Notes: a model not told the origin generated them from the letters alone. A stretch of 64,000 nucleotides of DNA from Ktedonobacteraceae bacterium (GCA_036384215.1 DASVMX010000143.1:21-64020), one strand, 5' to 3'. Counted from the first letter of the stretch, positions 15,418 through 43,285 are shown. Program-made: numbers and translations.

Positions 15418-17565
15418 TCAGGAGGCCGTTTTCTCCGGGTAGAGATTCATCAGATAGAATGGTTTGTTGAGCTTCGTGCCCGGAGCCACCAGCGAGCTCT
15501 GTTCCCACGCGGCCACAGCCTCCGGCGTCGGATGTTCCAGGCATGCACGGGCCTGCTCGACGGTACCGAGCAAATCCTCGCAGAGTTCGATGCACAGGCG
15601 CCGTGCTCGCCGCAGGAGATTCCCGGACTCCTCTCCCTCCTGCAACTGATAAGCGCAGAGAGCGCGGGCGAGCAGGGATTCGGGCAGGTGATCGTAATCT
15701 CCAAGCTTTTCGCGCAACTCCACGCTGCGTCCATACCACTGATGAGCCTGGCGAAACTCGGCCAGGCGATAGCACAGGTAGCCGCAGGCTCGGGCGATGA
15801 TCTCGCTGTGAAAGCTATCCTCGCCAGCCACGGCTTGCTCATAGCTTTGCTTATAGCACTCCAGAGCAGGCGCCAGAGCCCCGGCCTTCATGCGCAAGCC
15901 GCCTTCGCGGAACAAATAGTGTTTGGCAAAGATTTCGTTCGCAACGCTCAGGAAGCTGCGAAAAAAGGTCCAGGTGGACAGCGCCTGCTCTAGCCGGCCG
16001 GTATCTTCGAGGAGCACGGAGATATTGGAGACCAAATTGACCTTGAGATGGGTCGCCTCTTTCTGATGCAGGGGCTTCATGAGCGAGAGCGCGTTCTGCA
16101 CCATGGTCATGCCATCGCGGTAGTGTCCCTGCTGGTAATTCATCAGGGCACTGACGTTGAGCAGCCAGCCGTGCTCCAGCACTGCCTCGGGAGTGGACAG
16201 CCCATTGATCGCCTGGAATCCCTGGAGCAGGTATGTTCGCGCCTGCTCGATACGGTGCAGGCGTTTGCCAGTGATCAGGCCCAGGTACATACAGAGCTGG
16301 GCGCGCATCTCCGGCGCGGTCGCCAGCTCCAGGGCCAGTTGATAGCAGCTTGACGCCGCCTCGTGATGTTCAAGAAAAGTCTGGGCCAGCGCAATGGCTT
16401 TCCAGGTCGCGATCAGAATATCGCGCCTCTGGTGGATTTCCGCCACGGAGAATTCGAGTGCGACATAGAGATCATGGGCGGTCAGCGGCTTCCAGATAGC
16501 TTTAAAGCGCTCGACATCAAATTGCTCATCGCTGAGTACACCGAGCAAGACGATAATCTGCCGCCCCAGGAAAAGCACGGTCTCCATGTTGAGGACGAAC
16601 AGGGCCAGGCGCGTAGCCTGAAGCGCATAGGCACATCCCTCTTCGATCTGTCCCTGCGTGAAATGAGACAGGGCCAGTTGGGTTGCCTGCGCTTCATCGC
16701 ATGGTCCTCCAGAGACAGGGTCAACGACAGCAGAAACGGCCGCCATGGTATCAGCATCAGAACCGATGTCTGGCAGCGCGATTTCCTCTCCAAGCAACTG
16801 GCTCCGCACTCGCTCTAACAGCCGGGCATGTTCCCTCCGCCAGTCGAGGAAGCCCGCGATCTCCGCTGGCAGCGAGTGCTCTTCAGCAGAGGTTCCAACA
16901 ACAGCGGACTCGCGCAGCACACCCACCAGCACCAGGGGGATATGGGCCTGATTAATCCAGCGATTGAGCCGGCGGAAGGTCAGCAGAGTCAGGCGGTCGG
17001 CTGCCTGTAGCTCATCCCACCAGAGCACCAGAGGTCCCCGGGCTAGCGTCGGACTGGCCTGACGGGCCTCGATCACAAACTGGCAGAGGCCATTGATCAT
17101 GCGGAAAGCCTGCTCGGACTCGCGGTGAGAGCGGCGCTCGGATGGCGTCAGAGCAATCTGGGAAAGCGAGAGCGCCGGCTGGAAGCCCAGGCGGTCCATC
17201 AGCTGGGGATGGAGCGCGCTCAACTCCGCCGCGTAGCGCTGGATGATCTCCGGCGTCTCCTCGGCCACCAGCGGTAGCAACTGCTCCAGGAGTTGGCGGA
17301 CCGGCCAGAACGAGATCATCCCAGGCTGGAGACAACATACATGCAGCATGGTGCCACCTCGCTCGCTGACGAAGTGGCGATACTCCTGGCGGTGATCCTC
17401 AAGAGCAGCACCCGCACCCTGCGCCACGATCAGCAGGCTGCGAACGGTGGTTGGATCGCAGTCCGCGGCCTGGCGATAGAGGGTCTGGAGGCGCTGCTCT
17501 ATCCGCGCTTCCTGCTGCTGATGTAAAGGCTCCGCCTGGACGACGGGTCTAGAAGTGGAACTCAT
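15418..17565 (-). CDS. STAND-like/TPR repeat protein, paralog 1 (degenerate P-loop)
   Basis: Paralogous to 22038-24344 and 41291-43285. Shared blocks are SERRSHRESEQAFRMING, LVLWWDELQAADRLTLL (Walker-B-like) and HLKVNLVSNISVLLEDTG..FFRSFL. The C-terminal half is TPR-like. QGAGAALED sits where the P-loop should be. The preferred start is ATG 17565 (SD AAGGAG). Confidence 0.75.
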   Translation of the reverse strand: MSSTSRPVVQAEPLHQQQEARIEQRLQTLYRQAADCDPTTVRSLLIVAQGAGAALEDHRQEYRHFVSERGGTMLHVCCLQPGMISFWPVRQLLEQLLPLVAEETPEIIQRYAAELSALHPQLMDRLGFQPALSLSQIALTPSERRSHRESEQAFRMINGLCQFVIEARQASPTLARGPLVLWWDELQAADRLTLLTFRRLNRWINQAHIPLVLVGVLRESAVVGTSAEEHSLPAEIAGFLDWRREHARLLERVRSQLLGEEIALPDIGSDADTMAAVSAVVDPVSGGPCDEAQATQLALSHFTQGQIEEGCAYALQATRLALFVLNMETVLFLGRQIIVLLGVLSDEQFDVERFKAIWKPLTAHDLYVALEFSVAEIHQRRDILIATWKAIALAQTFLEHHEAASSCYQLALELATAPEMRAQLCMYLGLITGKRLHRIEQARTYLLQGFQAINGLSTPEAVLEHGWLLNVSALMNYQQGHYRDGMTMVQNALSLMKPLHQKEATHLKVNLVSNISVLLEDTGRLEQALSTWTFFRSFLSVANEIFAKHYLFREGGLRMKAGALAPALECYKQSYEQAVAGEDSFHSEIIARACGYLCYRLAEFRQAHQWYGRSVELREKLGDYDHLPESLLARALCAYQLQEGEESGNLLRRARRLCIELCEDLLGTVEQARACLEHPTPEAVAAWEQSSLVAPGTKLNKPFYLMNLYPEKTAS

Positions 17566-17854
17566 CGCAACCTTTCTCCTTTTTTGCAGAGAGAGAACCG
17601 GGGCACGAGGCACGAAGGGGCAGGCAAGCTGTCCCTCTGCCTGCGGGTTGACCGCAAGAAAACCGAAGCACGAAGAGACAGGCAAGCGGCGGGACAACTT
17701 CTCGCGGCGCGAGAAGTCGCCGATGACCTGGCGTCATTGACCTTGCCGACGCAGCCTATCTGCGTTGGGCCCCCTGCAAACACATGAACCGCACCCTCTC
17801 TTCCCCCTGCCCTCTCAGCCTCTCATCTCTCAGGAGGGAGTTCGGGGAATGATC

Positions 17855-18111
17855 GGGGGAACGGGTTCGCTTGTAGTGTAGCCAGAGAGTTGGCGCCTTG
17901 CCAGAGACACCAGTACGCACCGAAAGAGTATCTTTGTACTCTCACCCATATTGTTTCCGCAAAACTGCGAGCACGACCGGGTGAGCCATCTCGCTGACAA
18001 GTATCATAATACTTCTTGCGCCGGGACATATGTCCCCCTGGCAGTGTATCGATGAACCTAGACAGGAGAAAAGACGCTGGCTACACTACAAGCGGACCCC
18101 TTCCCCTGACC
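17855..18111. repeat. Inverted-repeat-bounded element, copy 1 (arms about 17855-17885 and 18077-18111)
   Basis: The left arm is GGGGGAACGGGTTCGCTTGTAGTGTAGCCAG. The reverse complement of the right arm is GGTCAGGGGAAGGGGTCCGCTTGTAGTGTAGCCAG. The arms are homologous to those at 37831-38178. Confidence 0.6.
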
Positions 18112-18299
18112 ACCCTGCTGGCTTCCTCCTGCCTTCAGGAGGCTGAGAGGGCATGGCAACCCCCGGCTACAACGGGTGCCAGAACCAGCAAGCAAGGCAG
18201 TAGCTTTGCGTTGAGGGAGGGTATGGTAGGGGAAAAGGGATCTTCTATAGGACAATCGTTGTCTTTTGGAATGTCTCTTCATCCTTTTCGGAGGTTTTT

Positions 18300-18734
18300 A
18301 TGGAAAAGCCCGTTACTTCGACGACTCCATCCCATGCTCAGCAAGCGCCAGAGCCTGCCGCGAGCGCCCCTGCGCAGCAGCCGGCACCTGTCGCGCAGTC
18401 TGGCGCTGTCCCGACGGCGCTCGTGGCCCCTGGCGTCGTGCCCGCAACCGGGGAGCAGAGCACCGCAGCGGCTGCACAGCCCACTGCGACGCCCACGACT
18501 CCTGCTACACCTGCCGCGGGACAGACGGCTCCGGCGCCCGCGACGCAGGCTCCCGCCGCGCCCGCCGCGCCCGCCGCGCCTGGCACTCCCGCTGCGGGAC
18601 AGGGCAGCCCGGGAAACCCCGCGCCCGCGGCACAGGAGCAGGTTGTCTTCGATGAACTGGAAGAGATTGAGTTTCTCCTGGATGAGATTGAGGACCAGAT
18701 TGCTCCGCTCGCGCTCCAGGCTCCCCTGCGGTGA
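18300..18734 (+). CDS. Pro/Ala/Thr-rich small protein with acidic C-terminal helix (candidate scaffold/precursor peptide)
   Basis: GGAGG lies 5 nt upstream of the ATG. It is the first gene of the plus operon. Codon usage looks natural in this frame, whereas the overlapping frames are Arg-rich. The C-terminus is QEQVVFDELEEIEFLLDEIEDQIAPLALQAPLR. Confidence 0.6.
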   Translation: MEKPVTSTTPSHAQQAPEPAASAPAQQPAPVAQSGAVPTALVAPGVVPATGEQSTAAAAQPTATPTTPATPAAGQTAPAPATQAPAAPAAPAAPGTPAAGQGSPGNPAPAAQEQVVFDELEEIEFLLDEIEDQIAPLALQAPLR

Positions 18735-18903
18735 GCTGACCCCTGCTGGCCTGGCCCCCCCGGAGCTGGTCTCGTCGCCCGGGGCTGCTCTGTGGGTAAG
18801 GCGAGCAGGCCAGGGCACCAGAACCAAAGAGCGTGGTGCCACTCGCGCTGTCCCGGCCCGTTCCAATGCCGGGGCGGGCTGGTCTCCCGCCTCCGCGCCT
18901 CTA

Positions 18904-18936
18904 CCGATCATCCGGGCGCGGGAAACGGATGATCGG
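18904..18936 (+). other. Stem-loop between the candidate precursor gene and the flavin reductase gene
   Basis: CCGATCATCC, a 13-nt loop, then GGATGATCGG. No U-tract follows, so it is not a classical terminator. It could act as an attenuator or processing site. Confidence 0.3.
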
Positions 18937-18962
18937 GAAAATCACGAAAGGAAAAGTATTCG

Positions 18963-19517
18963 ATGCATCTAGTGCAAAACCAATCCACTCCACCGCAGCA
19001 ATTGCCTCTCTACCGCTATTTTGCCAGCACAGTGGCGCTAATCACCTCGCAAAGCGAGGGCCAGCAGCGGAACGTTATGGCCTGCGAGTGGACGATGAAC
19101 GTCTGCCGGCATCCCCTGAAGATTATGACGCTGATCAATAAGGACGACCTGACCCACGAGCTGATTATGGCCAGCGGTGAGTTCGGGGTAAATCTGTGTT
19201 CGGAGGAACAGAGTTCCCTTTCGCACTTTGCCGGCAGCAACACCGGACGCGAGGAAGATAAGCTCCACAATACGATCTTTAACGGCCTGCTATATACCGC
19301 GACGCGCATCCAGGCTCCGATGATTCGGGGGTGTGTGCTCAATGCCGAGTGTGTGGTCGAGCAGGCCATCGACATGGGCAAGCACACGGCCTTTATCGGG
19401 CGGGCTCTGGCCGCCCGGCTTAATCCCAACCTGCGCCCTTTGCTGTACCACCAGGGCTGCTATCTGCGCTGTGGCGAGGTGATTCCCAAGCCCGAACACT
19501 CCGCGCAGGAGGTCTGA
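18963..19517 (+). CDS. Flavin reductase-like FMN-binding domain protein
   Basis: The sequence follows the PF01613-like pattern: FASTVALITSQSEGQQRNVMACEWTMNVCRHPLKIMTLI..GEFGVNLCSEEQSSLSHFAG..DKL..HTAFIGRAL. Confidence 0.8.
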   Translation: MHLVQNQSTPPQQLPLYRYFASTVALITSQSEGQQRNVMACEWTMNVCRHPLKIMTLINKDDLTHELIMASGEFGVNLCSEEQSSLSHFAGSNTGREEDKLHNTIFNGLLYTATRIQAPMIRGCVLNAECVVEQAIDMGKHTAFIGRALAARLNPNLRPLLYHQGCYLRCGEVIPKPEHSAQEV

Positions 19518-19567
19518 GCACCCGGTCGGTGAGAAAGTCGTGCAATGAACGAGAGGAAAGAGGGACG

Positions 19568-22057
19568 ATGGTGTTTACCGACGAATATACGTGGCAATTC
19601 CTGCCACATTATGTCATTCGCAGCACGGGCTTTCCTTTCCAATGGTTGGAAAGTCTCTCATTCCCGGAAACGACGGTTCTGATCGAGCGAGTGCTAGAGG
19701 CGGAACACGCGTTACAGGAGTGGGAAGCCCGCCTGGGTCGTTTGTGGGAAGCCGACACAGAACTCGCCTGGCCAAGAAAGGTGAAGCAGCAACTGCGCAA
19801 ATGGATAGTCAGGCGCGAAGGCGGTATTTGCCAGCGACTCCCTCTTTTACCTGAGTCTCTCAGGAGCGTAGCGGAGGAATGGGCGGCCGGGTGGGATGCT
19901 CGTGTCACCGCGTATTATGCCAGTCTGGAAGCACACAATCAGGCGTTTGAACGGGAGTTGCCGACGAAACGAGCACAACTTCGCCGGCTTGTGGCAGATC
20001 CCCGCTACCAGGAGGCCATCTTTTTGTCCAGCCCCGATATGTATCACCATCACATCCACAAATACCTCGACCAGCAAGATGGTTCCAGGCGCACTTCAGA
20101 ACTCAAGCGGGTAGAAAAGCGCTTCTTTAAATACCTGCAGCGGCTGTGTGGCAAGAATGAAACCTCCAGCTTTTTTGGACCACTCAACTACGGACGCATC
20201 GATCCTGCCCGAAAGCATTTCCTGGACGAACGCCGCTCGGCTGGTCCTCTGATCCAATATCGCCAGGTTTTTCTGGCCTTCTGGATGGTCAAGGCCCTGG
20301 CGGAGGCGATCAGGCGCGATGAGCGTTTGCAGGATGAGCTTCCTGTGAGCCTGCACCCGATGGTCGAGATCAGGGACGGCGGGAGCCTGTATCTCCATTC
20401 CGGCGACCGCGTATTCGCCGTGGGACAGTCCCTGGCGCGGATATTGCAGGCGCTGGATGGCAGCCAGAGCCTGCCGCAGTTTCTGGCATCGCTGCCAGCC
20501 GAGGAACAACCGCGGGCTGAACGCTTACTCCAGGCGCTATTGCAAGCGGGCATCGTGCGCAGGGGCTTCGTGGTACCATCGACGGTTGCCCGACCCATGG
20601 AGCATGTCGTCGCACAGTTGCACCGGCTCCCGGACTCGCCGGCTCGCCAGGAGTGGGAGCAGAGGCTCGCGATGTGGAACCACTGGTGCGAGGAGATGAC
20701 GGCCGCCGATCTGCCGACACGCATCCGCCTGCTGGAGCAGGGTGAGGCTCGTTTCACCGAGCAAACCGGAGAGCCCGCTCAACGGGGCAGCGGAAACCTG
20801 TACGCGGACCGCTATATCTTTTACGAAGAGGCCCGCGGCCACGTCGAGCAGTTTGTCATGGGTCGAGCCTTCTACGAGAAAATGCGGCGGGATCTGCGCG
20901 GGGCGCTGGAATTGAGCGCGTTCCAGGGACATCACGAGTGGAAACATCTCCAGAAGCTGGGCCACGAGCTCTTTCGCGAGCTCTCTCCTGCCGGGCATCC
21001 TGTCCCGTTTTTCCGCTTTCTCAATGCCCTGCGCGAGCGCTATCCAGCCTTCCCGGATATCCCGCCCCTGCCGGAACAGGAGGAGATCAGGAGCCTGATT
21101 GCAGGCAAAGTAGAACAGGGCGAAATCCACCGCGTGTCCCTGTCCTCACAAGAACTGCCCATCATTGAGCAGAAGACCGCCTGTTACAGCCTGCCGGATC
21201 TGTTCTTTGCCTCCACCAGCATCGAGGCCATGCAACGGGGCGAGTTTCAGATCGTGCTGGGCAAACTGCACCATCATCTCCTGGTTCCCAACTGGATGAC
21301 CTGCTTCTACGGTGACAAAGCGGGCCTGGCCGCCGACTTGCGCTCATATCTGGAACATGTCCCGGCCTTCCAGCAACTGGTCTGCCCTGAAGTTATTCGG
21401 CGCAACAAGGGTTTTTACGATTTTCCCGGTCGGATGGTGGAATTCTCCGAACGCTCGCTGAAGTCGAGAGAAGAGGTTGTCCCACTGTACGATATTCAGG
21501 TGGTGGAGCAGGCAGATGGCACGCTCGGCCTGGAACGCATCTCCAGCGGAGAACCAATGATCTTCTATATCTCGCTGGCCGACCAGGTGCGCTATTTGCC
21601 GTTTGCCCTGTTCGCGCTGCCAGCGCTGTCGCAGGTGTCCTTCTCCCTGGGCACACATACGCCAAGGATCGAGATCGATGGCGCGGTATACCAGCGCGAA
21701 CGCTGGGAGGTGCCCTCCAATGAATGGATGGGTTTACTCAACGGGGATGAACTGGAGAACTTCACCAGCCTGCACCGCCTGAAACAGACTTACGAACTTC
21801 CCGACCTGGTCTACGTGCGCGGGTCCTCCGAGCGCAAACCGTATGTGCTGGACTTCCGCAACTTCTTCTGCCTGGAGCTTCTGCACTCGATCATGGAGAA
21901 AAACGACTCTTTGCTGATCGAAGAGATGCTTCCAGCGCCAGATCAACTCTGGCTCAAAAACAGTCAGGGACGATATTCCTGTGAATTTCGCATGAATGTG
22001 TTTAAAATCAGAAACCATGCTGAAAGAGAGACAGACAATGATCATCGATCACATTGA
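19568..22057 (+). CDS. LanB N-terminal (glutamylation) domain-only protein, small LanB / PEARL-like, paralog 1
   Basis: Motifs are YVIRSTGFPFQWL, PRYQEAIFLSSPDMY and RVEKRFFKYLQRLCGKNETSSFFGPLNYG, the last being the counterpart of the LanB RxxxRxTPFGLF segment. Also LYADRYIFYEE, HTPRIEIDGAVYQRERWEV and KPYVLDFRNFF. I set the start to ATG 19568 (SD GAGGAAAGAGGG) by alignment with the paralogs. Confidence 0.8.
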   Translation: MVFTDEYTWQFLPHYVIRSTGFPFQWLESLSFPETTVLIERVLEAEHALQEWEARLGRLWEADTELAWPRKVKQQLRKWIVRREGGICQRLPLLPESLRSVAEEWAAGWDARVTAYYASLEAHNQAFERELPTKRAQLRRLVADPRYQEAIFLSSPDMYHHHIHKYLDQQDGSRRTSELKRVEKRFFKYLQRLCGKNETSSFFGPLNYGRIDPARKHFLDERRSAGPLIQYRQVFLAFWMVKALAEAIRRDERLQDELPVSLHPMVEIRDGGSLYLHSGDRVFAVGQSLARILQALDGSQSLPQFLASLPAEEQPRAERLLQALLQAGIVRRGFVVPSTVARPMEHVVAQLHRLPDSPARQEWEQRLAMWNHWCEEMTAADLPTRIRLLEQGEARFTEQTGEPAQRGSGNLYADRYIFYEEARGHVEQFVMGRAFYEKMRRDLRGALELSAFQGHHEWKHLQKLGHELFRELSPAGHPVPFFRFLNALRERYPAFPDIPPLPEQEEIRSLIAGKVEQGEIHRVSLSSQELPIIEQKTACYSLPDLFFASTSIEAMQRGEFQIVLGKLHHHLLVPNWMTCFYGDKAGLAADLRSYLEHVPAFQQLVCPEVIRRNKGFYDFPGRMVEFSERSLKSREEVVPLYDIQVVEQADGTLGLERISSGEPMIFYISLADQVRYLPFALFALPALSQVSFSLGTHTPRIEIDGAVYQRERWEVPSNEWMGLLNGDELENFTSLHRLKQTYELPDLVYVRGSSERKPYVLDFRNFFCLELLHSIMEKNDSLLIEEMLPAPDQLWLKNSQGRYSCEFRMNVFKIRNHAERETDNDHRSH

Positions 22058-24344: not shown

Positions 24345-24400
24345 AGAGGCGTCGTATGCTGTCGCAAGATGCAAACAGGAAGAAGACAGGTAAAAAACCG

Positions 24401-26881: not shown

Positions 26882-28011
26882 AAACCACGAGCGACGTGAT
26901 TATCGTCGGCGCGGGGATCGTCGGTTGTATGCTGGCCTACTGGCTGCGCAAAAGCGGACGCAGCGTGCTGCTTTTCGAGCGCGGCCAGCCCGGCCAGGAG
27001 GCATCTGGCGCCTATGCCGGTCTGCTCTCGCCCGCCGCCGAGGGGCACGTGGAGGGACCGTACGCGAGCCTCTCCCGGCAGGGGCTGGCCGCGCTGCGGG
27101 AGACTGTGGCGATCCTCCAGGACGAGACCGGCCTTGATGCCGGGCTGGCCTGCGCCCCTCTTTTTCGCGTCGCTACCAGTAAGCAGGAGGGCGAGGTGCT
27201 GTACCAGTACTGGCAGAAGCAACGTACCCTGGGCGGTTCGGCGACATGGCTGGAGGCAAGCGAGGTGCTGGCCGCAGAGCCTGCCTTCTCGCCGCGGATC
27301 ATCGGGGCCATGCGCAGCCCGGAGGAATATCACCTGATGCCCCGCTGCCTGCTGCCGGCAGTAGTCGCTGCCGGCCAGTTGCGCGGCGTGCGGATGCTTG
27401 CGGGAACCGCGGTCAGCCGCCTGCTCACCCGCGGACAGCGCGTCATCGGCGTAGAGGCCGGGGGAACAATCTACCAGACGGAGCAGGTTGTGCTGGCCAG
27501 CGGCGCGTGGTCGCCCGCCCTGCTGCAACCACTCGGACTGGAACTGGCGGTCGCGCCCAAACGCGGGCAGATGCTGACGATTGTCTGTCCTGATTTTCCG
27601 CTCGCTTTCATCGTCAACACAGCCTGGGGCTATCTCGTACCCAAGTCCGACAGGAGCATTGTCGTTGGGGCAACGCAAGAAGACGCGGGCTTTGTCAAGG
27701 CCGTGACCATGTCGGGAATAGCCCAGCTCCTGCGCGTGCTCTCGGTCCTGCCTCCCCTGATGCACGCCACCCTCCAGCAGACCTTCACTGGCCTCAGACC
27801 GATGTCCGCGGATGGGATGCCCCTCCTGGGGCCAGTGCCCGGTTGGGAGGGGCTCTGTGTCGCCACCGGGCACTCCCAGCATGGGATTTTGCTCTCCGAT
27901 ATCACCGCTCGTATGGTCACCGCTCACCTCAATGGAGAAAATCCGGGCGAGCATTGGGCAGACTTTCAGGTCGCCCGCGCCCTCACCCCAGGAAAGGACC
28001 ACGTTCTATGA
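26878..28011 (+). CDS. FAD-dependent oxidoreductase, glycine oxidase (ThiO)/DAO family
   Basis: The dinucleotide fold is DVIIVGAGIVGCMLAYWL. Other ThiO-like segments are VVLASGAWS, KRGQML, GLRPMSADGMPLLG and VATGHSQHGILLS. The TTG start at 26878 (SD GGAAGGAG) overlaps the upstream stop (TTGA). The stop overlaps the next ATG (ATGA). Confidence 0.85.
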   Translation: MKTTSDVIIVGAGIVGCMLAYWLRKSGRSVLLFERGQPGQEASGAYAGLLSPAAEGHVEGPYASLSRQGLAALRETVAILQDETGLDAGLACAPLFRVATSKQEGEVLYQYWQKQRTLGGSATWLEASEVLAAEPAFSPRIIGAMRSPEEYHLMPRCLLPAVVAAGQLRGVRMLAGTAVSRLLTRGQRVIGVEAGGTIYQTEQVVLASGAWSPALLQPLGLELAVAPKRGQMLTIVCPDFPLAFIVNTAWGYLVPKSDRSIVVGATQEDAGFVKAVTMSGIAQLLRVLSVLPPLMHATLQQTFTGLRPMSADGMPLLGPVPGWEGLCVATGHSQHGILLSDITARMVTAHLNGENPGEHWADFQVARALTPGKDHVL

Positions 28012-32475: not shown

Positions 32476-32479
32476 AGCG

Positions 32480-34978: not shown

Positions 34979-35039
34979 ACGCAGGGAAACCTTCTCTTTC
35001 TTCTGTCACGCGCTGGTCGCGCCTGTTTGTAAGACCGGA

Positions 35040-37508: not shown

Positions 37509-37830
37509 ACAGCAGTTTCCTCGCAACCTTTCTCTTTGCCAGCCCTGTTCGTCCTCGGGAGAAAAGCCAGGCTGGACACGAATGTACTGCACTGACGCTC
37601 ACGGCGGCGTTGAAACGCGGGTGGGTCAGGGACCGCTGTCTGTGTGGGGATTGCTGGTCGACAGGGACGGCATCCGCAAGCCAACCAGATCATGCTTCTC
37701 CTCCGGCAGGCAGCATGATTTGATTGGGCGCTGAGACCATGAAGCGAGTCGGGGCACGTCTCATTGCCAACACCCCTCTCCCCCGCTGCGCGCTGCCCGT
37801 TCCACTTCTCGTCAGTGGACGCAACGCGAG

Positions 37831-38281: not shown

Positions 38282-39874
38282 ATGGAAAACACTCAGGCTA
38301 CGCTTTTGCGTATTGCTGTGGCAGGCTGGCCCCTGACCCTGGCACCACAGAAGTCTTCACTCACCAATGAATTGCCGGTTTTGACGCTGAACTACGAGGG
38401 TCTGACGCGTATCGATAAAGACCTCCGCACGGTCCCGGCTGCGGCGGAGAGATGGCAGTATAACAGCGATTCGACCAGCATATCGTTCACCCTGCGCTCC
38501 GGGCTGACCTACAGCGACGGATCTCCGCTTCGGGCACGCGACTTCGTCCAGGCCGTCTACCGCGTGCTCGATCCGCGCAGTCCGGGGAACTATCAAACCC
38601 TGCTCGCAATGATCGCCGGGGCAGAGGCCATCATCGACGCCGGGCCAGAGGTGGACGAGGCGCGACTGCGCGATCTGTGCGGACAACTGGCGGTCTCGGC
38701 CCCGGACGACCGCACCATCGACTTCGCGTTGACCCGGCCTACACCTTATTTTCACACCCTGGCCAGCACCTGGGTGCTGTATCCGGCGAAACAGGAGCGC
38801 ATCGACAGAGGCGGAGCGCGCTGGGGCGCAGACGCGGCCAATCATCTCGGCAACGGACCCTTCCAGATGACGACCATCGATCCGCGGGCCAATCTGATCG
38901 CGTTCAAGGCCAATGAGTATTACTGGCATGGCCGCCCCAAACTGGATGGCGTGCACCTGCTATACATTGATGACAAAGCCGCGGCCTTCCAGAGCTATTT
39001 GCGGGGCGAGGTGGATATCCTGGCGCCCGATCCACGCGATGTTCCACGCATCAAGGCCGACGCAACACTCAGCCAGGAATTCAAGGAATATCCCGGAGCC
39101 TGTACGATGGTCCTCGAATTCGCTCTGGTGAAGGCTCCGTTCAACAACAAGCTGGTGCGCGAGGCATTTACCTATGCCTTTGACCGCGGCTCGTATATTC
39201 GCGATGTCCTTCACGAGACCGAGGTCAAGACCCTGACCTGGATTCCCCCTGGCTATCCAGGCCACGATCCCTGCGAGAGGCGCTATGACTTCGATCCGGT
39301 GCAGGCACGCCATTGCCTGACAGCGGCTGGCTTTCCGGGCGGACAGGGTCTGCCGGAGATCCGCTTCTCCTACAGCCAGAATCCCATCAACCAGGCGCGG
39401 GTCGATTACATCATCCAGATGTATCAGCGGATTCTTGGGGTTGCCATCACGCCCAATCCAGTAAGCGACGCTGGCCTGGCGGAGATGAGAAGGTCAGTCG
39501 AGACCTTTCCGCAGATAGTAATCGGTGGCGGCTGGTGCGCCGACTATCCCGATCCGCAAAACTGGCTGAGCGTCTACTGGCACTCGCGCACCAACATCGC
39601 CCGCAGCGTTGGCTATAAAAACGAGGAGGCCGACCGGCTGATGGACCTGGCTGATGTCGAGACCGAGCCAGAGAAGCGCATCGAGTTGTACAGGCAGGCA
39701 CAGGAACTGATCGTGGGCGACGTGGCCCAACTGGCCCACGGCCACACCAAAAACGGCTACCTGATCAAGCCCTGGATCAAAGGCCTGGACCTGACCGCGC
39801 AGGACTGGGTATTTCCAGGGCAGGTCACCAGCCTGCTCACGACGGTTATCGAGAAGGAACCACCAGGGCGGTAA
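38282..39874 (+). CDS. Family-5 (peptide/nickel type) solute-binding-protein homolog lacking a signal peptide
   Basis: The SBP_bac_5 pattern is LRIAVAGWPLTL..LNYEGLTRIDKDL..PAAAERWQYNSD..ISFTLRSGLTYSDGSPLRARDF. An in-frame stop at 38252-38254 leaves no room for a signal or lipobox extension. No ABC permease or ATPase genes lie nearby. Confidence 0.85.
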   Translation: MENTQATLLRIAVAGWPLTLAPQKSSLTNELPVLTLNYEGLTRIDKDLRTVPAAAERWQYNSDSTSISFTLRSGLTYSDGSPLRARDFVQAVYRVLDPRSPGNYQTLLAMIAGAEAIIDAGPEVDEARLRDLCGQLAVSAPDDRTIDFALTRPTPYFHTLASTWVLYPAKQERIDRGGARWGADAANHLGNGPFQMTTIDPRANLIAFKANEYYWHGRPKLDGVHLLYIDDKAAAFQSYLRGEVDILAPDPRDVPRIKADATLSQEFKEYPGACTMVLEFALVKAPFNNKLVREAFTYAFDRGSYIRDVLHETEVKTLTWIPPGYPGHDPCERRYDFDPVQARHCLTAAGFPGGQGLPEIRFSYSQNPINQARVDYIIQMYQRILGVAITPNPVSDAGLAEMRRSVETFPQIVIGGGWCADYPDPQNWLSVYWHSRTNIARSVGYKNEEADRLMDLADVETEPEKRIELYRQAQELIVGDVAQLAHGHTKNGYLIKPWIKGLDLTAQDWVFPGQVTSLLTTVIEKEPPGR

Positions 39875-39955
39875 CGCCTGGTACGAGAGCCAATCATCCG
39901 CTGTTATGAGAAGATCTCTCGCGCAAGCGACAGCAGGAGAGAAAGCAGAAAGACG

Positions 39956-41191
39956 ATGATGAAAATCACCCTGTTTCGATCACTGACACAACGTTCGTTT
40001 GCCTTCCTCTGGAGCGGGCAGGCCATTTCAGCGCTGGGAGATAGCCTCTACCGCGTGGCCCTGGCCTGGTGGGTGCTGGAGAAAACCGGCTCCGCGACAA
40101 TTATGGGCATTGTGCTGATCTTCTCCTTCATCCCGATGCTCCTGTTCCTGCTCATCGGGGGCGTGGCCGTAGACCGCTTTTCTCGTCTACAGGTGATGCT
40201 AATCTCGGACACCCTGCGCGGGGTGATCGTGCTGACCATGGCGTTGCTCGGCTTTGCTCAGCACCTGGAGGTCTGGCATGTCTATATCGCCAGTGTGCTC
40301 TTTGGCCTGGTCGATGCGTTTTTCCAGCCCGCGTACGCGGCGGTCATTCCAGAGATTATGCCCCAGGATCTGCTGCCCAGCGCTAATTCGCTCACGGTGC
40401 TGAGTCGACAGACCTTCAGCGTCGTAGGTCCAGCTCTGGGGGCGCTCATCATCGCTTTGGGCAACACATCAGCCGCGTTTGTCTGCGATGGCCTGACCTT
40501 TGTCTTCTCCGCCTGCTGCCTGCTGATGATCCGCCAGATACCCGCGCCGGACGCTCGCGGTAAATCCGAGGCTCCCGGACGTGAGCCAGGGATTATCGCC
40601 GATCTACGCGAAGGCATCGGCACGGTGATAGCCTCGCCGTGGATCTGGATCACGATTGTGGTCTCTGCCCTGGCGAATATTACGCAATCCGCCCCTTTCA
40701 GTGTCTCGCTGCCATTTCTCGTCACCAGAACCTGGCACGCCAATGTCCAGGTCCTGGGAACGCTCTACTCGGTCTATTTCCTGGGCTCGGTGCTTGGGGC
40801 AATCTGGCTCGGCCACGCGAAGAAATTACGGCGGCGTGGCCCGCTGGCCTACTTTTTCGTGATCCTCAGCGGGCTGATGACGCTCTCCCTCGGCCTGCCG
40901 CTCCCGGTAGGCGGGATGTTTGTGACGGCACTCATTCGCGGGCTCTCGTTTACCGCGTTCGAGCTCGTCTGGGTGAATACGCTACAGGAGCTTGTGCCCG
41001 GCAAATTGCTGGGGCGCGTGGCCAGCATCGATTATCTCGGCTCATTTGCCCTGCTGCCGCTTGGCTACGCCATCGCCGGGCGGGTCACCGACCTCGTCGG
41101 CCCGCCAGCGGTATTTTTGATCGGCGGCCTCATCACGATTAGCGTCGCTATGCTCGGGATCACCCACCCGGTTGTCAGGCGCGTGGATTGA
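39956..41191 (+). CDS. MFS transporter (EntS/MFS_3-like exporter)
   Basis: About 12 hydrophobic helices are visible. The N-terminus is typical of the family (FAFLWSGQAISALGDSLYRVALAWWVL..GGVAVDRFSR). Confidence 0.85.
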   Translation: MMKITLFRSLTQRSFAFLWSGQAISALGDSLYRVALAWWVLEKTGSATIMGIVLIFSFIPMLLFLLIGGVAVDRFSRLQVMLISDTLRGVIVLTMALLGFAQHLEVWHVYIASVLFGLVDAFFQPAYAAVIPEIMPQDLLPSANSLTVLSRQTFSVVGPALGALIIALGNTSAAFVCDGLTFVFSACCLLMIRQIPAPDARGKSEAPGREPGIIADLREGIGTVIASPWIWITIVVSALANITQSAPFSVSLPFLVTRTWHANVQVLGTLYSVYFLGSVLGAIWLGHAKKLRRRGPLAYFFVILSGLMTLSLGLPLPVGGMFVTALIRGLSFTAFELVWVNTLQELVPGKLLGRVASIDYLGSFALLPLGYAIAGRVTDLVGPPAVFLIGGLITISVAMLGITHPVVRRVD

Positions 41192-41290
41192 CGTGCCTGC
41201 GCAGCCAGACAGGCGCTCCGGGGCAACGATTAGAACCCAGGCACAACAGGCATGAGATGGGCGATTACAGACCGAAAGGGAACCATAGCA

Positions 41291-43285
41291 ATGGAGAACA
41301 ACACGTTTGAACTTATGACAAGCAACCGAAAGGGTCTTGCCCAGAAAGAGCGAGATGAGCGTCTCCAGGCCGGCGCGTTGCCGCACGCCTGGCTCCAGCC
41401 CTTCGCGGCCCTGGAGACAGCGGCGGCAGCGGAGCCGCTGATCTGGCTGCATGCTCCTCACGAGCTGACCGCCGAGCTTCTGCCCCTGCTCCGGGCGCAT
41501 CTGGACGCCGGGCACAACCGTTGTTTCCTCGCGGGATATCCCACCGCCGAGCACTCCTCCTTCGCCCCACTTCGTCCCCTGCTGCGCCAACTCCTGCCGC
41601 TGGTCAAGGATGGCGTCGCGGAGATCCTGTACGCGTGCGCTCCAGAGCTGGTAGCGCTGCTCCCCGACCTGGCCTCATCGCTGCTTACGGAGACTTCCGA
41701 GCTCGCCACGCTGGTGCACATGCCCCTCCACTCCGACCGCACCCTGCCGCTCGATTCCGACTACGTCTACCGTATTGCGATGCGCGCCGGCTGGTTTCTC
41801 GAAAACGCGGGCCGGCACTACACTGCAGCCTCCCAGCGCCGGCCCGTCTTCGTCTTCCCCTGTGTCGAAAAGTTCGACCGGCCAACCCTGCAAACGCTCT
41901 ATCACCTCTGCTGGCGAGCGCGCACTGGAGCATTCCGGCTAGTGATCATCAGCGCCTGTGCCCCGGACACCGGACCCATCGACGAGTCACTCGGACTCTT
42001 TGACCTCCAGCACGTACAGCAGACCTTCCTCTCAAAGCTCTATGAAAGACTAAAGCCAGCACTCGTGCGTCTGCCTGCCACAGTTCCCAACCAGCCATCC
42101 CTGGCACCTCTGCCCGCTGGCGATGACAGCGAGGCCTGCGCGTACCGATTGGCTGTCACAGCCTTGGGTACGGCTCCGCTGGAGGAGGCACAGCTGGCAT
42201 TTTTCCATGCCGTCGAGGTGAGTACGCAATATCTGAACGCGCAGCCAGTGTTGAGCCTGGCCGCGGAGGCGCTGGCGCGAGAAGATCTGGAGATCGACGG
42301 CGAGTTCGTGGCGTCCATCTGGCACACGGCGGGCATGGCTCACGCCTCGCATGGCGACTATACGCGGGCAACCGACTGCTTTCGCCGGGGCTTCGCTCGC
42401 ACACACCAGCCAGTGATGCGCGCCCGCCTGGCCATGTTCCTCTCCCTCGTCCTGGCTAAACGCATGGGCCAGTTCGAGGAGGCCGAACACTTCCTGGCCA
42501 CAGGCTATAGCGCGATCGAAAGCGCCGAGACCCCAGAAGCGACCCTGGAGCATGGCTGGCTGAACAATGTGAAGGCCCTGATCGCCTACCGCAATCGCGA
42601 CTATGGCCAGGCGCTACGCCTGACGCAGAGCGCGCTGGAGTTTATGAAACCCTATCGCACCCCTGCCAGCATCAGCCTGAACACCAACCTCGTGGCCAAT
42701 GCCAGTGTGGTCTTCGAGACCACGGGAAAATGCGAGCGGGCGCTGGGCATCTGGGGCATCTTCCGCACTTTCCTGGATGAGGCCGGGGATGTCTTTGGCA
42801 AATATTACTATCTCCGCGAGGCAGGCCTCCAGCTCAAAGCAGGCCTGATCGCAGAGGCGACCAGGGGGTATCAACAGGCCTTCGCTATGGCCAAACGCGT
42901 TGGCGACCTCGTGACCATGGAGGCCGCGGCCCGCGCCAGCAGCCAGATCGCGGGCCGCGCCGGCGACTATGCCAGCGCGCTGACCTGGGCCGAACGCCTC
43001 CCCGCGCTGCTTGAGCAGATCGGCGATCAGCAGCAACTGTACCAGAGCTGGCTCGCCATCGCCGCCTGCCACGCCCTGCAGACCCACCCGCGAGAGGCAG
43101 AAGCCGCCCTGTGCAACGCCCGGCTCCTCCTGGAACGCGACAACCGGCTCCAGGAATGCCCGGACCTCCTGGACGCGCTCACCCGGCTCCAGGCTGGCCA
43201 GGCCGACGCGATTGACTGGCAGCGCTGGCTCCCGGCCCTCCCCCACACCATGCTTCGCGGCCCCTCGCACCTGTTCCAGCCATGA
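41291..43285 (+). CDS. STAND-like/TPR repeat protein, paralog 3 (most degenerate NTPase region)
   Basis: Shares RPVFVFPCVEKFDRPTLQTLYHLCWRA and SLNTNLVANASVVFETTG..IFRTFL..YYYLREAGLQLKAG with paralogs 1 and 2. The C-terminal half is TPR-like. The preferred start is ATG 41291; the track start is 41252. Confidence 0.7.
   Translation: MENNTFELMTSNRKGLAQKERDERLQAGALPHAWLQPFAALETAAAAEPLIWLHAPHELTAELLPLLRAHLDAGHNRCFLAGYPTAEHSSFAPLRPLLRQLLPLVKDGVAEILYACAPELVALLPDLASSLLTETSELATLVHMPLHSDRTLPLDSDYVYRIAMRAGWFLENAGRHYTAASQRRPVFVFPCVEKFDRPTLQTLYHLCWRARTGAFRLVIISACAPDTGPIDESLGLFDLQHVQQTFLSKLYERLKPALVRLPATVPNQPSLAPLPAGDDSEACAYRLAVTALGTAPLEEAQLAFFHAVEVSTQYLNAQPVLSLAAEALAREDLEIDGEFVASIWHTAGMAHASHGDYTRATDCFRRGFARTHQPVMRARLAMFLSLVLAKRMGQFEEAEHFLATGYSAIESAETPEATLEHGWLNNVKALIAYRNRDYGQALRLTQSALEFMKPYRTPASISLNTNLVANASVVFETTGKCERALGIWGIFRTFLDEAGDVFGKYYYLREAGLQLKAGLIAEATRGYQQAFAMAKRVGDLVTMEAAARASSQIAGRAGDYASALTWAERLPALLEQIGDQQQLYQSWLAIAACHALQTHPREAEAALCNARLLLERDNRLQECPDLLDALTRLQAGQADAIDWQRWLPALPHTMLRGPSHLFQP

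What the first reader, a model, noticed from the sequence alone, without database searches (positions are those of the whole stretch)
15418..43285. Three paralogous STAND/TPR proteins with progressively degenerate NTPase motifs embedded among the LanB-like genes
The genes at 15418-17565 (-), 22038-24344 (+) and 41291-43285 (+) share several blocks:
- an N-terminal AAA_16/STAND-like region
- a conserved S-E-R-R-x-x-R-E-S-E-Q-x-F-R-x-I-N block
- a Walker-B-like strand
- a TPR-like C-terminal half
- in paralogs 1 and 2, a similar C-terminal tail (KLNKPFYLMNLYPE / KLGQPFYLIHIPAG)

Where the regulator at 7033 has an intact P-loop (APAGYGKT), these proteins read QGAGAALED, EEIAGAGDAMD and HAPHELTAELL. 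The Walker B decays from WWDELQAAD through VHNLDFGD to CVEKFD. They therefore look like pseudo-ATPases.

Paralog 2 overlaps the end of LanB-like 1 and sits directly before LanB-like 2. Paralog 1 heads the methyltransferase/TldD string. Paralog 3 closes the SBP-MFS string.

None of them has a visible DNA-binding domain. They could be assembly scaffolds for a multi-enzyme complex, tRNA- or peptide-binding adaptors, or sensor modules. I know of no such partner for characterised PEARLs.
Basis: partly seen in the sequence, partly recalled or inferred. Interest (0 to 1): 0.6.

Follow-up and report, generated by a model that had tools for sequence, protein, structure and literature searches.

The report
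Three BhaC1-type proteins in PEARL cluster
The three look-alike proteins belong to a known family of tryptophan-oxidising flavoenzymes that work alongside peptide-extending (PEARL) enzymes; their front half is a burnt-out ATPase module, and two of the three copies are unstudied variants of the family.

Summary
Three real paralogs (BLASTP E 8e-58 to 1e-35) share an N-terminal α/β domain without a P-loop, a conserved SERR..RESE block and a TPR half, and they sit inside a five-PEARL cluster.

The claim that characterised PEARLs have no such partner is wrong. [quoted passage not shown] Two of my closest hits are rows of the published BhaC1 alignment. The matching scaffold-peptide gene lies at 18300-18734.

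The pseudo-ATPase idea is supported. The N-domain model matches only P-loop NTPases (Cdc6/Orc1 Z 12.2). Its profile also retrieves genuine AAA_16 STAND proteins with intact Walker A motifs. The three BhaC1 papers I term-searched do not mention this.

The three copies are old lineages, each with orthologues in other clusters. Paralog 1 keeps every hallmark and is the likely hydroxylase. Paralog 2 is a conserved variant. Paralog 3 has lost four conserved His and the Lys654 equivalent, so it is probably non-catalytic.

An earlier scan note (e1-2130135) describes a related cluster in another genome.

The parts
15418..17565 (-). Paralog 1 (715 aa): BhaC1/AmmC1-family protein of the canonical type. 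It has a Walker-A-less AAA_16-like N-domain (about residues 1-270) and a TPR half. It keeps PSERRSHRESEQ, GKRL (K434), NLVSN (N514) and TKLNKPFYLMNLY (K698).
   Evidence: It forms a clade with Saccharothrix WP_033442357.1 and Actinoplanes flavus WP_208467297.1, both of which are rows of the published BhaC1 alignment.
22038..24344 (+). Paralog 2 (768 aa): a variant subfamily with SSERRLSRESEQ (His to Ser) and TKLGQPFYLIH (Asn to Gly). The Lys/Asn/Lys triad is kept. An extra segment of about 130 aa lies between the N-domain and the TPR half. The gene is translationally coupled to the PEARL genes on both sides.
   Evidence: It forms a clade with Brevibacillus (L012) and Pseudovibrio (L022, L024) copies.
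41291..43285 (+). Paralog 3 (664 aa): a degenerate subfamily. The motif reads SDRTLPLDSDY, all four family-conserved His are lost, and the C-terminal Lys is replaced (TMLRGPSHLF). AKRM (Lys) and NLVAN (Asn) are kept. It lies after the SBP and MFS genes.
   Evidence: It forms a clade with L001:668-2722, L002:4476-7361 and L004:6616-8262.
18300..18734 (+). Scaffold (precursor) peptide gene of BhaA/AmmA type. Its C-terminus reads ...FDELEEIEFLLDEIEDQIAPLALQAPLR. The true start may lie further downstream. It is divergent from paralog 1.
   Evidence: Compared by eye with the BhaA and AmmA* sequences printed in PMC9850906. Aligned with 19 peptides from related loci; F, E and IAPL are invariant.
19529..22057 (+). 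PEARL 1 (small LanB, N-terminal dehydratase domain only)
   Evidence: Pfam Lant_dehydr_N, E 5e-22, with no other family reported.
24341..26881 (+). PEARL 2
   Evidence: Pfam Lant_dehydr_N, E 9e-16.
29989..32520 (-). PEARL 3
   Evidence: Pfam Lant_dehydr_N, E 5.5e-24.
32480..34978 (-). PEARL 4
   Evidence: Pfam Lant_dehydr_N, E 6e-25.
35040..37592 (-). PEARL 5
   Evidence: Pfam Lant_dehydr_N, E 1.4e-20.
26719..28011 (+). FAD-dependent oxidase of the glycine-oxidase kind, filling the role of BhaG/Amm14 by analogy. The true start is probably later than 26719.
   Evidence: Pfam DAO, E 1e-65, beginning at residue 59. The role is taken from PMC11117183 passages. No sequence comparison with BhaG was made.
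28008..30083 (+). Protein resembling a radical-SAM enzyme but without a CxxxCxxC motif. It is possibly the Amm10 counterpart.
   Evidence: TIGR03975, E 4.6e-9, far below cut-off. The description of Amm10 comes from a PMC12424672 passage. A homologue follows the DAO gene in Pseudovibrio L024. Not compared with the Amm10 sequence.
18963..19517 (+). Flavin reductase-like protein
   Evidence: Pfam Flavin_Reduct, E 6e-34. Homologues sit directly before the paralog-1-type gene in L001-L003.
13754..15775 (-). O-methyltransferase with a dimerisation domain. The ORF as listed overlaps paralog 1, so the true start probably lies downstream of 15417.
   Evidence: Pfam Dimerisation E 7e-21 and Methyltransf_2 E 1.5e-15.
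10838..13530 (-). TldD/PmbA metallopeptidase pair (12175-13530 and 10838-12175)
   Evidence: Pfam PmbA_TldD_3rd, E 2e-61 and 4e-56. TldD homologues occur in 33 of 75 related loci.
38282..41191 (+). Family-5 solute-binding protein (38282-39874) and MFS transporter (39956-41191), upstream of paralog 3
   Evidence: Pfam SBP_bac_5 E 2.5e-69 and MFS_1 E 2.7e-33.
6940..10368 (+). MalT-like STAND regulator with an intact P-loop, a TPR_MalT region and a C-terminal SARP/BTAD part. It is not a close relative of the three paralogs.
   Evidence: PRK04841, E 6e-58; APAGYGKT; N-domain profile E 0.43.

Best explanation
The three genes encode three anciently diverged members of the BhaC1/AmmC1 family. This family is the partner of PEARLs in pyrroloiminoquinone-type 'pearlin' pathways. 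Its characterised members hold the acidic scaffold peptide in a TPR cleft, thread its C-terminus through a tunnel, and use FMN to put three hydroxyls on the C-terminal Trp that a PEARL has added.

Shown here:
- Family membership.
- The presence of the matching scaffold peptide and five PEARLs.
- The N-terminal domain is a remnant of an AAA_16/STAND NTPase that has lost Walker A family-wide, so nucleotide hydrolysis is not part of the mechanism.
- Each window paralog belongs to its own conserved lineage.

Inferred:
- Paralog 1 keeps every hallmark and lies divergently next to the scaffold-peptide gene. It is the Trp trihydroxylase of this cluster (about 0.65).
- Paralog 2 keeps the Lys/Asn/Lys substrate-holding triad but carries clade-fixed changes (two conserved His lost, the NRPF Asn changed to Gly) and is co-translated with two PEARLs. 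It performs a different step on a later scaffold-bound intermediate, or presents that intermediate to its neighbouring PEARLs (about 0.5).
- Paralog 3 has lost all four conserved His, the Arg-rich motif and the carboxylate-binding C-terminal Lys. It is a non-catalytic peptide-binding copy (about 0.5), perhaps linked to release or export.
For: Family membership:
- The homologue search with paralog 1 returned 31 proteins at E<=1e-3. Among them were Saccharothrix sp. NRRL B-16314 (P0029, E 7.6e-129, 41% identity) and Actinoplanes flavus (P0033, E 1.5e-121, 40%).
- These two proteins, with the same organism names, lengths (639 and 633 aa) and N-termini, are rows of the BhaC1/AmmC1 alignment in SI Fig. 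S8 of PMC9850906.
- That alignment shows the same hallmarks: PS(E/R)RR(L/S)H(R/K)ESEQ; TKRL (BhaC1 K391); NL(L/I)SN (N472); and TKLNRPFxLxNLY (K654).
- The paper predicts that K391 and K654 bind the C-terminal carboxylate and N472 the indole NH. K391 cross-links to the product.
- In paralog 1 the equivalents are K434, N514 and K698. The spacings are 80 and 264 residues, against 81 and 263 in BhaC1.

Context:
- A scaffold peptide ending ...EIEFLLDEIEDQIAPLALQAPLR lies at 18300-18734.
- 43 of 75 related loci hold such a peptide, and in 38 of these it lies directly upstream of the C gene.
- 56 of 75 loci have PEARLs in the fetched flanks.

STAND origin:
- The AF2 models are confident: pLDDT 88.4 for the full length and 86.5 for the N-domain.
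- Foldseek on the N-domain gave RdrA at E 2e-5 and ORC4 at 2.5e-5.
- VIA-align 2 on the N-domain gave Cdc6/Orc1 2qby_B at Z 12.2 (rmsd 4.1, 176 aligned) and MalT 8bob_D at Z 9.5. All 50 listed rows are P-loop NTPases by title.
- The N-domain profile found 205 proteins at E<=1e-3 among 1.84 billion.
- Six long proteins I picked from the weak tail (E 1.9e-7 to 3.6e-5) all carry Pfam AAA_16 above cut-off at the matched place (6 of 6). Five of the six have GEPGIGK[ST].
- The family's invariant Asp (D190) aligns with the Asp of the AAA_16 'LVLDDLHWAD' motif.

Three lineages:
- FastTree on 78 rows gave SH-like support of 100, 99 and 100 for the three clades. IQ-TREE on 33 rows gave SH-aLRT of 100, 95 and 100.
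- The substitutions are clade-specific and fixed.
- In four genomes with paralog-2- or paralog-3-type copies that I searched whole, a canonical copy is also present. A fifth searched genome, Actinoplanes flavus, has only the paralog-1 type. On the Dormiibacterota contig L004 the paralog-3-like copy lies directly after a copy that keeps the motifs.
- The window's own genome has no further copies.
Against: - No activity, FMN binding or peptide binding was tested.
- Paralog 1's clade is separate from both characterised enzymes. The BhaC1-type and AmmC1-type clades lie elsewhere in the tree, so orthology of function is inferred from motifs only.
- The residues named as substrate-binding come from a published AlphaFold-Multimer model, not from a solved structure.
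- Where FMN binds is unknown, so loss of His residues is only suggestive of loss of catalysis.
- 19 of 75 related loci show no PEARL within the fetched flanks.
- Pfam AAA_16 stays below its cut-off in every family member scanned: 4 of 37 hit at E<=1.
- Long branches meet in the trees, as the tool warned, so the order of the deep splits is unsure.
Confidence: 0.7

Rival explanations
1. All three proteins are non-catalytic. They act as assembly scaffolds or peptide/tRNA adaptors that organise the PEARLs into a complex.
For: - All three have a TPR half and a dead NTPase domain.
- Paralog 2 is translationally coupled to two PEARLs.
- The ammosamide authors suggest a protein-protein interaction role for the TPR protein AmmC2 (PMC12424672 passage).
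Against: - The characterised family members BhaC1 and AmmC1 are enzymes that purify with FMN and trihydroxylate Trp (PMC9850906 and PMC11117183 passages).
- Paralog 1 keeps 60 of 75 family-conserved positions, including every named substrate-binding residue.
Confidence: 0.1
2. The roles are swapped. Paralog 2, the copy embedded between PEARLs, is the Trp trihydroxylase, and paralog 1 performs another oxidation.
For: - Paralog 2 keeps the Lys/Asn/Lys triad and 54 of 75 conserved positions.
- It is positioned between PEARLs, like the C gene in many AmmC1-type loci.
Against: - In Brevibacillus and Pseudovibrio the paralog-2 type coexists with a BhaC1-type copy whose Brevibacillus and Pseudovibrio relatives are rows of the published BhaC1 alignment. 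This suggests the paralog-2 type is the accessory copy.
- It lacks two His that are conserved in at least 90% of 65 reference members.
Confidence: 0.1
3. Paralogs 2 and 3 are redundant duplicates drifting toward loss and have no function of their own.
For: The number of family-conserved positions kept falls from 60 to 54 to 43 of 75. Paralog 3 has lost the hallmark motifs.
Against: - Both are intact open frames.
- Each has orthologues in other phyla that share the same substitutions: paralog 2 in Bacillota and Pseudomonadota, paralog 3 in Actinomycetota and Dormiibacterota.
- Many TPR-core positions remain invariant.
Confidence: 0.06
4. They are STAND-type signalling sensors that regulate the cluster through partner proteins, without an HTH of their own.
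For: They have the AAA_16 plus TPR architecture typical of MalT/AfsR-like regulators. A STAND regulator lies next to the cluster.
Against: - No Walker A is present in any copy.
- In the AmmC1-type clade the alignment rows begin only at strand 2; the part holding strand 1 and helix 1 was not aligned in them.
- No effector or DNA-binding domain was found.
- The enzymatic function of family members is established.
- The neighbouring regulator is not a close relative (E 0.43).
Confidence: 0.03

Closest known systems
BhaC1 (Bacillus halodurans, BAB05752.1 / WP_010898191.1), the TPR-containing FMN-dependent trihydroxylase of a C-terminal Trp
   Same: It shares the same family hallmarks: the PSxRRxHxESEQ motif, the KRL Lys, the NLxSN Asn, the C-terminal TKLNRPFxLxNLY tail and the TPR half. 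The genes also share their neighbourhood: a scaffold peptide ending ...IAPLAL, several PEARLs and a glycine-oxidase-like gene.
   Different: The window copies fall in clades other than the BhaC1 type. Paralog 2 and paralog 3 carry clade-fixed losses of conserved residues. I did not run BhaC1's own sequence through any tool; I compared it by eye from the printed alignment.
AmmC1 (Streptomyces sp. CNR698, WP_051437089.1) and the lymphostin-cluster homologues of Salinispora
   Same: Same family. Salinispora, Streptomyces and Kitasatospora loci matched paralog 1 at tblastn E 1e-31 to 5e-35, each with a scaffold peptide directly upstream and PEARLs downstream.
   Different: AmmC1-type proteins are shorter (about 600 aa). 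In my alignment their rows begin only at strand 2 of the N-domain; the part aligned to the former P-loop is absent. The window copies keep strand 1 and helix 1.
AmmC2, an uncharacterised TPR protein of the ammosamide cluster
   Same: It is a second TPR protein in a PEARL cluster. Its authors suggest it mediates protein-protein contacts (PMC12424672 passage). That is the role I infer for paralog 3.
   Different: I had no AmmC2 sequence, so relatedness is untested. In AmmC1-type loci only one family member lies within 10 kb. In two of them (L060, L066) the upstream gene that matched the window's regulator is a SARP/BTAD regulator.
AAA_16 STAND NTPases with TPR arrays (MalT/AfsR-like regulators, kinase-AAA_16-TPR proteins)
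   Same: They share the domain order (NTPase then TPR), the predicted fold, and an alignable helical insert and 'hWAD' Asp.
   Different: The window proteins have no Walker A, no conserved Walker B acidic pair and no effector domain. The Pfam AAA_16 score stays below cut-off.

Membership tests
BhaC1/AmmC1 family (TPR-containing flavoenzymes of pearlin pathways) | Full-length sequence homology to proteins that the describers align with BhaC1 and AmmC1 | tested here: met
   Paralog 1 matches Saccharothrix P0029 (E 7.6e-129) and Actinoplanes flavus P0033 (E 1.5e-121). Both are rows of SI Fig. S8 of PMC9850906. Paralogs 2 and 3 match paralog 1 at E 8e-58 and 2e-54.
BhaC1/AmmC1 family (TPR-containing flavoenzymes of pearlin pathways) | Conserved PS(E/R)RR(L/S)H(R/K)ESEQ motif | tested here: inconclusive
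   Met in paralog 1 (PSERRSHRESEQ). Paralog 2 has His changed to Ser (SSERRLSRESEQ). Not met in paralog 3 (SDRTLPLDSDY).
BhaC1/AmmC1 family (TPR-containing flavoenzymes of pearlin pathways) | Equivalents of BhaC1 Lys391, Asn472 and Lys654, the residues predicted to hold the C-terminal Trp | tested here: inconclusive
   Paralog 1: K434, N514, K698, all present. Paralog 2: K486, N566, K750, all present. Paralog 3: K390 and N470 present, but the third is Met654. The residue roles come from PMC9850906 and PMC11117183 passages.
BhaC1/AmmC1 family (TPR-containing flavoenzymes of pearlin pathways) | Gene neighbourhood with a BhaA/AmmA-type scaffold peptide and PEARLs | tested here: met
   The scaffold peptide lies at 18300-18734. 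Five genes carry Lant_dehydr_N only. The same pairing occurs in related loci.
BhaC1/AmmC1 family (TPR-containing flavoenzymes of pearlin pathways) | Binds FMN and trihydroxylates the indole of a C-terminal Trp | not testable with these tools
   This needs protein expression, flavin analysis and mass spectrometry.
STAND / AAA_16 P-loop NTPases | P-loop NTPase α/β fold of the AAA+/STAND kind | tested here: met
   On the predicted model only: VIA-align 2 gave Cdc6/Orc1 at Z 12.2, SSO1545 at 11.2, Avs3 at 9.8 and MalT at 9.5. Foldseek gave RdrA and ORC4 at E 2e-5.
STAND / AAA_16 P-loop NTPases | Walker A motif GxxxxGK[ST] | tested here: not met
   0 of 3 paralogs have it. The region is variable in the family, and the AmmC1-type rows of the alignment have nothing aligned to it.
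STAND / AAA_16 P-loop NTPases | Sequence homology to genuine AAA_16 domains | tested here: met
   The N-domain profile hits six AAA_16 proteins at library-wide E 1.9e-7 to 3.6e-5. All six have Pfam AAA_16 above cut-off at the matched place.
STAND / AAA_16 P-loop NTPases | Pfam AAA_16 gathering score reached | tested here: not met
   The score is 17.6 to 20.6 bits against a cut-off of 32.6. 4 of 37 family N-domains hit at E<=1.
AmmC2-type TPR protein | Sequence similarity to AmmC2 | not tested
   No AmmC2 sequence was reachable with the tools. Only a text mention was available.

The most novel reading that the evidence does not exclude
BhaC1-type flavoenzymes as a whole arose from AAA_16 STAND-TPR signalling ATPases, and the former nucleotide-binding domain was rebuilt around the Arg-rich PSERRxHRESE insert to hold FMN. 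This window shows the family split into three working forms:
- a Trp trihydroxylase (paralog 1);
- a second enzyme with new chemistry, or a PEARL-docking subunit (paralog-2 type, signature SERRLSRESE and TKLGxPFYLxH);
- a catalytically dead, scaffold-peptide-binding pseudoenzyme that hands the finished intermediate to protease or exporter (paralog-3 type).
Probability: 0.25. Interest if true: 0.65.

Novelty: new variant of a known kind. Interest (0 to 1): 0.45.

Why it matters
BhaC1 and AmmC1 carry out a reaction described as unique (three hydroxylations of an indole). Their describers state that they have no recognisable flavin-binding site.

Recognising the N-terminal half as a remodelled AAA_16/STAND NTPase domain gives a concrete place and a set of invariant residues to test for FMN binding: the second Arg of SERR, the 'hWAD' Asp, and four conserved His. 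It also gives an evolutionary origin.

The two accessory lineages are conserved across phyla and always accompany a canonical copy in the genomes I checked. They are candidates for unassigned steps, or for the 'non-chemical' helper roles that remain open in pearlin pathways.

The practical gain is modest. The cluster itself is an ordinary member of a known class of biosynthetic gene cluster.

Tried and rejected
- **Complex prediction.** Complex prediction with paralog 3 (alignment A5) and the last 49 residues of the scaffold peptide (A4) gave no verdict: ipSAE 0.01 and 0.02, and controls were not run. It says nothing either way.
- **Profile against the neighbouring regulator.** hhalign of the N-domain profile against the regulator's NTPase part, given as a single sequence, found nothing. 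HMMER gave E 0.43. The paralogs are therefore not recent derivatives of that regulator.
- **Two-sequence profile.** A profile of the paralog-2-type N-terminal 440-470 aa against six STAND proteins gave only weak matches (E 0.007 to 0.4). Its pairing of 'GEEIAGAG' with 'GEPGIGKT', and of 'SNGSPVLVQALL' with 'TEGNPFFVHQVL', is suggestive only.
- **Solved structures.** The search of solved structures with the family profile returned only generic TPR matches (best E 1.9e-5), so no solved relative was found by sequence. Foldseek on the full-length model was dominated by TPR proteins, which is why I modelled the N-domain alone.
- **Accession look-up.** The listing of cluster members, used to tie hits to the AmmC1/BhaC1 accession numbers, returned no accessions.
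- **First peptide scan.** My first scan for an acidic small ORF (at least 22% Asp+Glu, at most 110 aa) missed the scaffold peptide, because the frame is 144 aa long and Pro/Ala-rich. It was found by listing ORFs.
- **Trees.** The IQ-TREE mixture run on 78 rows did not finish. I replaced it with FastTree and with IQ-TREE LG+G4 on 33 chosen rows.
- **Earlier findings.** Look-ups by place and by sequence found nothing.
- **Rejected idea.** I considered that the 318-aa ORF at 18016-18972 is a gene. Its Arg/Pro/Ser-rich translation is the out-of-frame shadow of the scaffold-peptide gene.

Full report
**What is in the window.** Between about 10.8 and 43.3 kb lies a biosynthetic cluster. It contains:
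- five genes that carry only the N-terminal lantibiotic-dehydratase domain (small LanB, that is PEARLs);
- two TldD/PmbA peptidases;
- an O-methyltransferase;
- a flavin reductase-like protein;
- a DAO-type FAD oxidase;
- a solute-binding protein and an MFS transporter;
- a MalT/SARP-type regulator at the edge.

The cluster region has a higher G+C content (about 0.59-0.64) than most of the flanks (about 0.53-0.59). The three genes of the finding are open frames at 15418-17565 (-), 22038-24344 (+) and 41291-43285 (+).

**Check of the observation.** The three proteins are clearly paralogous.
- BLASTP gives E 8e-58, 2e-54 and 1e-35 for the C-terminal halves. The N-terminal parts give separate hits of E 1e-16 and 5e-4.
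- Pfam sees only TPR repeats plus a sub-threshold AAA_16 match in paralog 1 (E 0.0056, 17.6 bits against a cut-off of 32.6). NCBIfam sees nothing specific.
- None of the three has a Walker A motif, while the neighbouring regulator has APAGYGKT.
- The gene-order statements are right. Paralog 2 overlaps the preceding PEARL by 20 nt and shares an ATGA with the next one.

**What the family is.** A homologue search with paralog 1 found 31 proteins at E<=1e-3. All were annotated at most as 'tetratricopeptide repeat protein'. They included proteins of Saccharothrix sp. NRRL B-16314 and Actinoplanes flavus at 40-41% identity.

A literature search for PEARLs and TPR proteins led to three papers:
- PMC9850906 (passages and supplement read);
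- PMC11117183 (passages read);
- PMC12424672 (passages read).

They describe BhaC1 and AmmC1 as TPR-containing, FMN-dependent enzymes. These enzymes trihydroxylate the indole of the Trp that a PEARL has added to the C-terminus of the scaffold peptide, in the bha and ammosamide pathways. A review gives the positions as C4, C5 and C7.

The supplement's Fig. S8 aligns BhaC1 and AmmC1 with the very Saccharothrix and Actinoplanes proteins that I had retrieved; organism, length and N-terminus all agree.

The residues the authors single out sit in recognisable motifs:
- BhaC1 Lys391 and Lys654 are predicted to bind the C-terminal carboxylate, and Lys391 is confirmed by a cross-link.
- Asn472 is predicted to bind the indole NH.
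- These residues lie in the KRL, TKLNRPF and NLxSN motifs respectively.
- Paralog 1 has all three (K434, K698, N514) at almost the same spacing.

The statement that characterised PEARLs have no such partner is therefore wrong.

**The scaffold peptide.** The listed 318-aa ORF at 18016-18972 has an Arg/Pro/Ser-rich translation and no family match. In another frame, at 18300-18734, lies a peptide ending ...FDELEEIEFLLDEIEDQIAPLALQAPLR. This is the acidic BhaA/AmmA type, whose sequences are printed in PMC9850906. It lies divergently from paralog 1. An alignment with 19 peptides from related loci keeps F, E and IAPL invariant.

**Context elsewhere.** A pattern-plus-tblastn scan of one genome per species returned 75 loci. 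They come from Actinomycetota (including Salinispora, home of the lymphostin cluster), Myxococcota, Pseudovibrio, Brevibacillus, a Dormiibacterota MAG and a Ktedonobacterales MAG. Using profiles built from the window's own proteins, I counted:
- 56 of 75 loci with at least one PEARL in the fetched flanks;
- 33 with TldD-like genes;
- 28 with the DAO-type oxidase.

Of the 19 loci without a PEARL, most are Archangiaceae or other myxobacterial loci with full 10-kb flanks, and a few are short or partial contigs. A scaffold-peptide-like small ORF was found in 43 of 75 loci. In 38 of these it lies on the same strand directly upstream of the C gene (frames longer than 200 aa were dropped before the count). 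The family is therefore tied to this pathway type, not to generic regulation.

**The pseudo-ATPase.** AlphaFold2 models are confident: pLDDT 88.4 and pTM 0.89 for the full length, and 86.5 and 0.83 for residues 1-292 alone. The N-domain alternates five strands with helices.

Structure searches with the N-domain alone:
- Foldseek returned RdrA, ORC4, Cdc6/Orc1, BrxC and TnsC, with a best E of 2e-5.
- The search independent of Foldseek returned Cdc6/Orc1 (Z 12.2, rmsd 4.1, 176 aligned), ORC, Cdc6, the archaeal ATPase SSO1545, Avs3 (Z 9.8) and MalT (Z 9.5). All 50 listed rows are P-loop NTPases, as I read their titles.

Sequence evidence agrees:
- A profile of 37 N-domains, searched against 1.84 billion representatives, found 205 proteins at E<=1e-3.
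- In its weak tail were long multidomain proteins. All six that I scanned carry Pfam AAA_16 above cut-off exactly where the profile matched.
- Five of the six have an intact GEPGIGK[ST].
- Six family-length proteins from the same tail, scanned alongside, had no AAA_16 above cut-off: one had no family at all and the others TPR repeats, one with a sub-threshold AAA_16 match.
- In the alignments, the family's PSERRLHRESEQvFR block lies over the STAND proteins' 'PSYR..AESERFRLF'. The family-invariant Asp (D190 in paralog 1) lies over the Asp of 'LVLDDLHWAD'.

The family thus descends from AAA_16-TPR STAND proteins and has lost nucleotide-binding motifs throughout. In the AmmC1-type clade the alignment rows begin only at strand 2; I cut them there, so this is a feature of my alignment as well as of the shorter proteins.

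Term searches in three of the four library papers that mention BhaC1 found no occurrence of P-loop, AAA, STAND, ATPase or Rossmann. In PMC11117183, STAND itself was not among the terms searched. The fourth paper, a review, was searched only for BhaC1, TPR and AmmC1; it names only the TPR domain. The authors state that there is no canonical flavin-binding site. The original activity report was not in the searchable library, so I cannot say the point is unpublished.

**Three lineages, not local decay.** A motif table of 79 family proteins and two trees place each window paralog in its own clade. The trees are FastTree on 78 rows and IQ-TREE LG+G4 on 33 rows chosen to span the clades.
- Paralog 1 groups with the Saccharothrix, Actinoplanes flavus and actinobacterial-MAG copies (support 100).
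- Paralog 2 groups with Brevibacillus and Pseudovibrio copies (99 and 95). Shared signatures are SERRLSRE[SN]E and TKLGxPFYLxH.
- Paralog 3 groups with second copies in the Saccharothrix and MAG loci (100), and more loosely with a Dormiibacterota copy (96). Shared signatures are NLV[AV]N and a tail of the form T[MT]LR.PS.LF.

Both tree tools warned of long branches, so the deep order is unsure.

Of 75 columns that are at least 90% identical in 65 other family members, paralog 1 keeps 60, paralog 2 keeps 54 and paralog 3 keeps 43. Four conserved His mark the difference (H147, H506, H549, H586 in paralog 1 numbering):
- The paralog-2 clade lacks the first and third.
- Window paralog 3 lacks all four, and also has Met in place of the Lys654 equivalent.

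Whole-genome searches show the accessory types alongside a canonical copy:
- Brevibacillus and Pseudovibrio have a BhaC1 type plus a paralog-2 type.
- Saccharothrix and the MAG have a paralog-1 type plus a paralog-3 type.
- Actinoplanes flavus has the paralog-1 type only.

The window's genome has exactly these three copies. Its other matches cover only the TPR part, at E 1e-10 or weaker.

**Mechanism proposed.** The following is established by others for the family. The TPR cleft binds the acidic helix of the scaffold peptide, the C-terminus enters a tunnel, and FMN-dependent hydroxylation of the appended Trp follows.

The following is inferred here:
- Paralog 1 does this job in the cluster.
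- Paralog 2 keeps the substrate-holding triad but has a changed set of conserved polar residues, and it is co-translated with two PEARLs. It acts on, or presents, a later intermediate.
- Paralog 3 is non-catalytic and keeps only the binding scaffold.

A complex prediction for paralog 3 with the peptide gave no verdict and is not used.

**Verdict.** The 'unknown partner' reading is refuted by existing literature. What remains of interest is the STAND ancestry of an unusual flavoenzyme family, and two conserved, unstudied sister lineages that occur together with the canonical type in this one cluster.

Noticed in passing
window 18016-18972 (+) versus 18300-18734 (+): The long 318-aa ORF is an out-of-frame shadow with an Arg/Pro/Ser-rich translation. 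The real gene is the 144-codon frame encoding the scaffold peptide. Its Pro/Ala/Thr-rich N-terminal two thirds may be partly untranslated, because the start is uncertain.
   Followed up: partly
window 28008-30083 (+): A protein with weak similarity to RiPP radical-SAM C-methyltransferases (TIGR03975, E 4.6e-9) but no CxxxCxxC motif. Its start overlaps the stop of the DAO gene (ATGA, derived from the ORF coordinates). It fits the published description of Amm10: a TsrM-like N-terminus without the Cys motif and an RRE-like C-terminus. A homologue follows the DAO gene in Pseudovibrio L024 (12852-14695).
   Followed up: partly
L005, L018, L020, L023, L025, L027, L029, L030, L033, L037, L051, L059 and others: 19 of 75 related loci have the C gene but no PEARL in the fetched flanks. 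Most are Archangiaceae or other myxobacteria, and several have the scaffold peptide directly upstream. In Archangium gephyra L035 the PEARLs begin about 5 kb downstream, so the cluster may be split or more spread out in this group.
   Followed up: no
L001:1-2722; L004:3124-8262; window 39956-43285: The paralog-3-type gene lies beside an MFS transporter gene in the window, in the actinobacterial MAG (divergent) and in the Dormiibacterota contig (MFS, then a canonical-like copy, then the paralog-3-like copy). It does not in Saccharothrix L002. This may hint at a link to export.
   Followed up: no
window 22038-24344, paralog 2 residues about 250-400; L012:9761-12076: Paralog 2 and its Brevibacillus orthologue carry an extra segment of about 130 aa between the N-domain and the TPR half. 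The segment contains 'SNGSPVLVQALL', which resembles the 'GNPxF' helical-arm motif of AAA_16 regulators (weak match, E 0.3). The Pseudovibrio copies (592 aa) lack the segment.
   Followed up: partly
L021 (record titled Comamonas sp. KCTC 72670) and L013 (Proteobacteria bacterium MAG): Their C genes nest inside the Myxococcus clade with very short branches. The records may be mislabelled or contaminated, or the genes recently transferred.
   Followed up: no
window 1-10000 and 46000-64000 versus 10000-46000: The cluster is richer in G+C (about 0.59-0.64) than most of its flanks (about 0.53-0.59). Together with its nearest relatives being actinobacterial, this suggests acquisition by transfer.
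   Followed up: no
window 6940-10368 (+): The regulator has an unusual order. A MalT-like NTPase and TPR_MalT region come first, and a SARP-type Trans_reg_C plus BTAD part sits at the C-terminus. This reverses the usual AfsR order.
   Followed up: no
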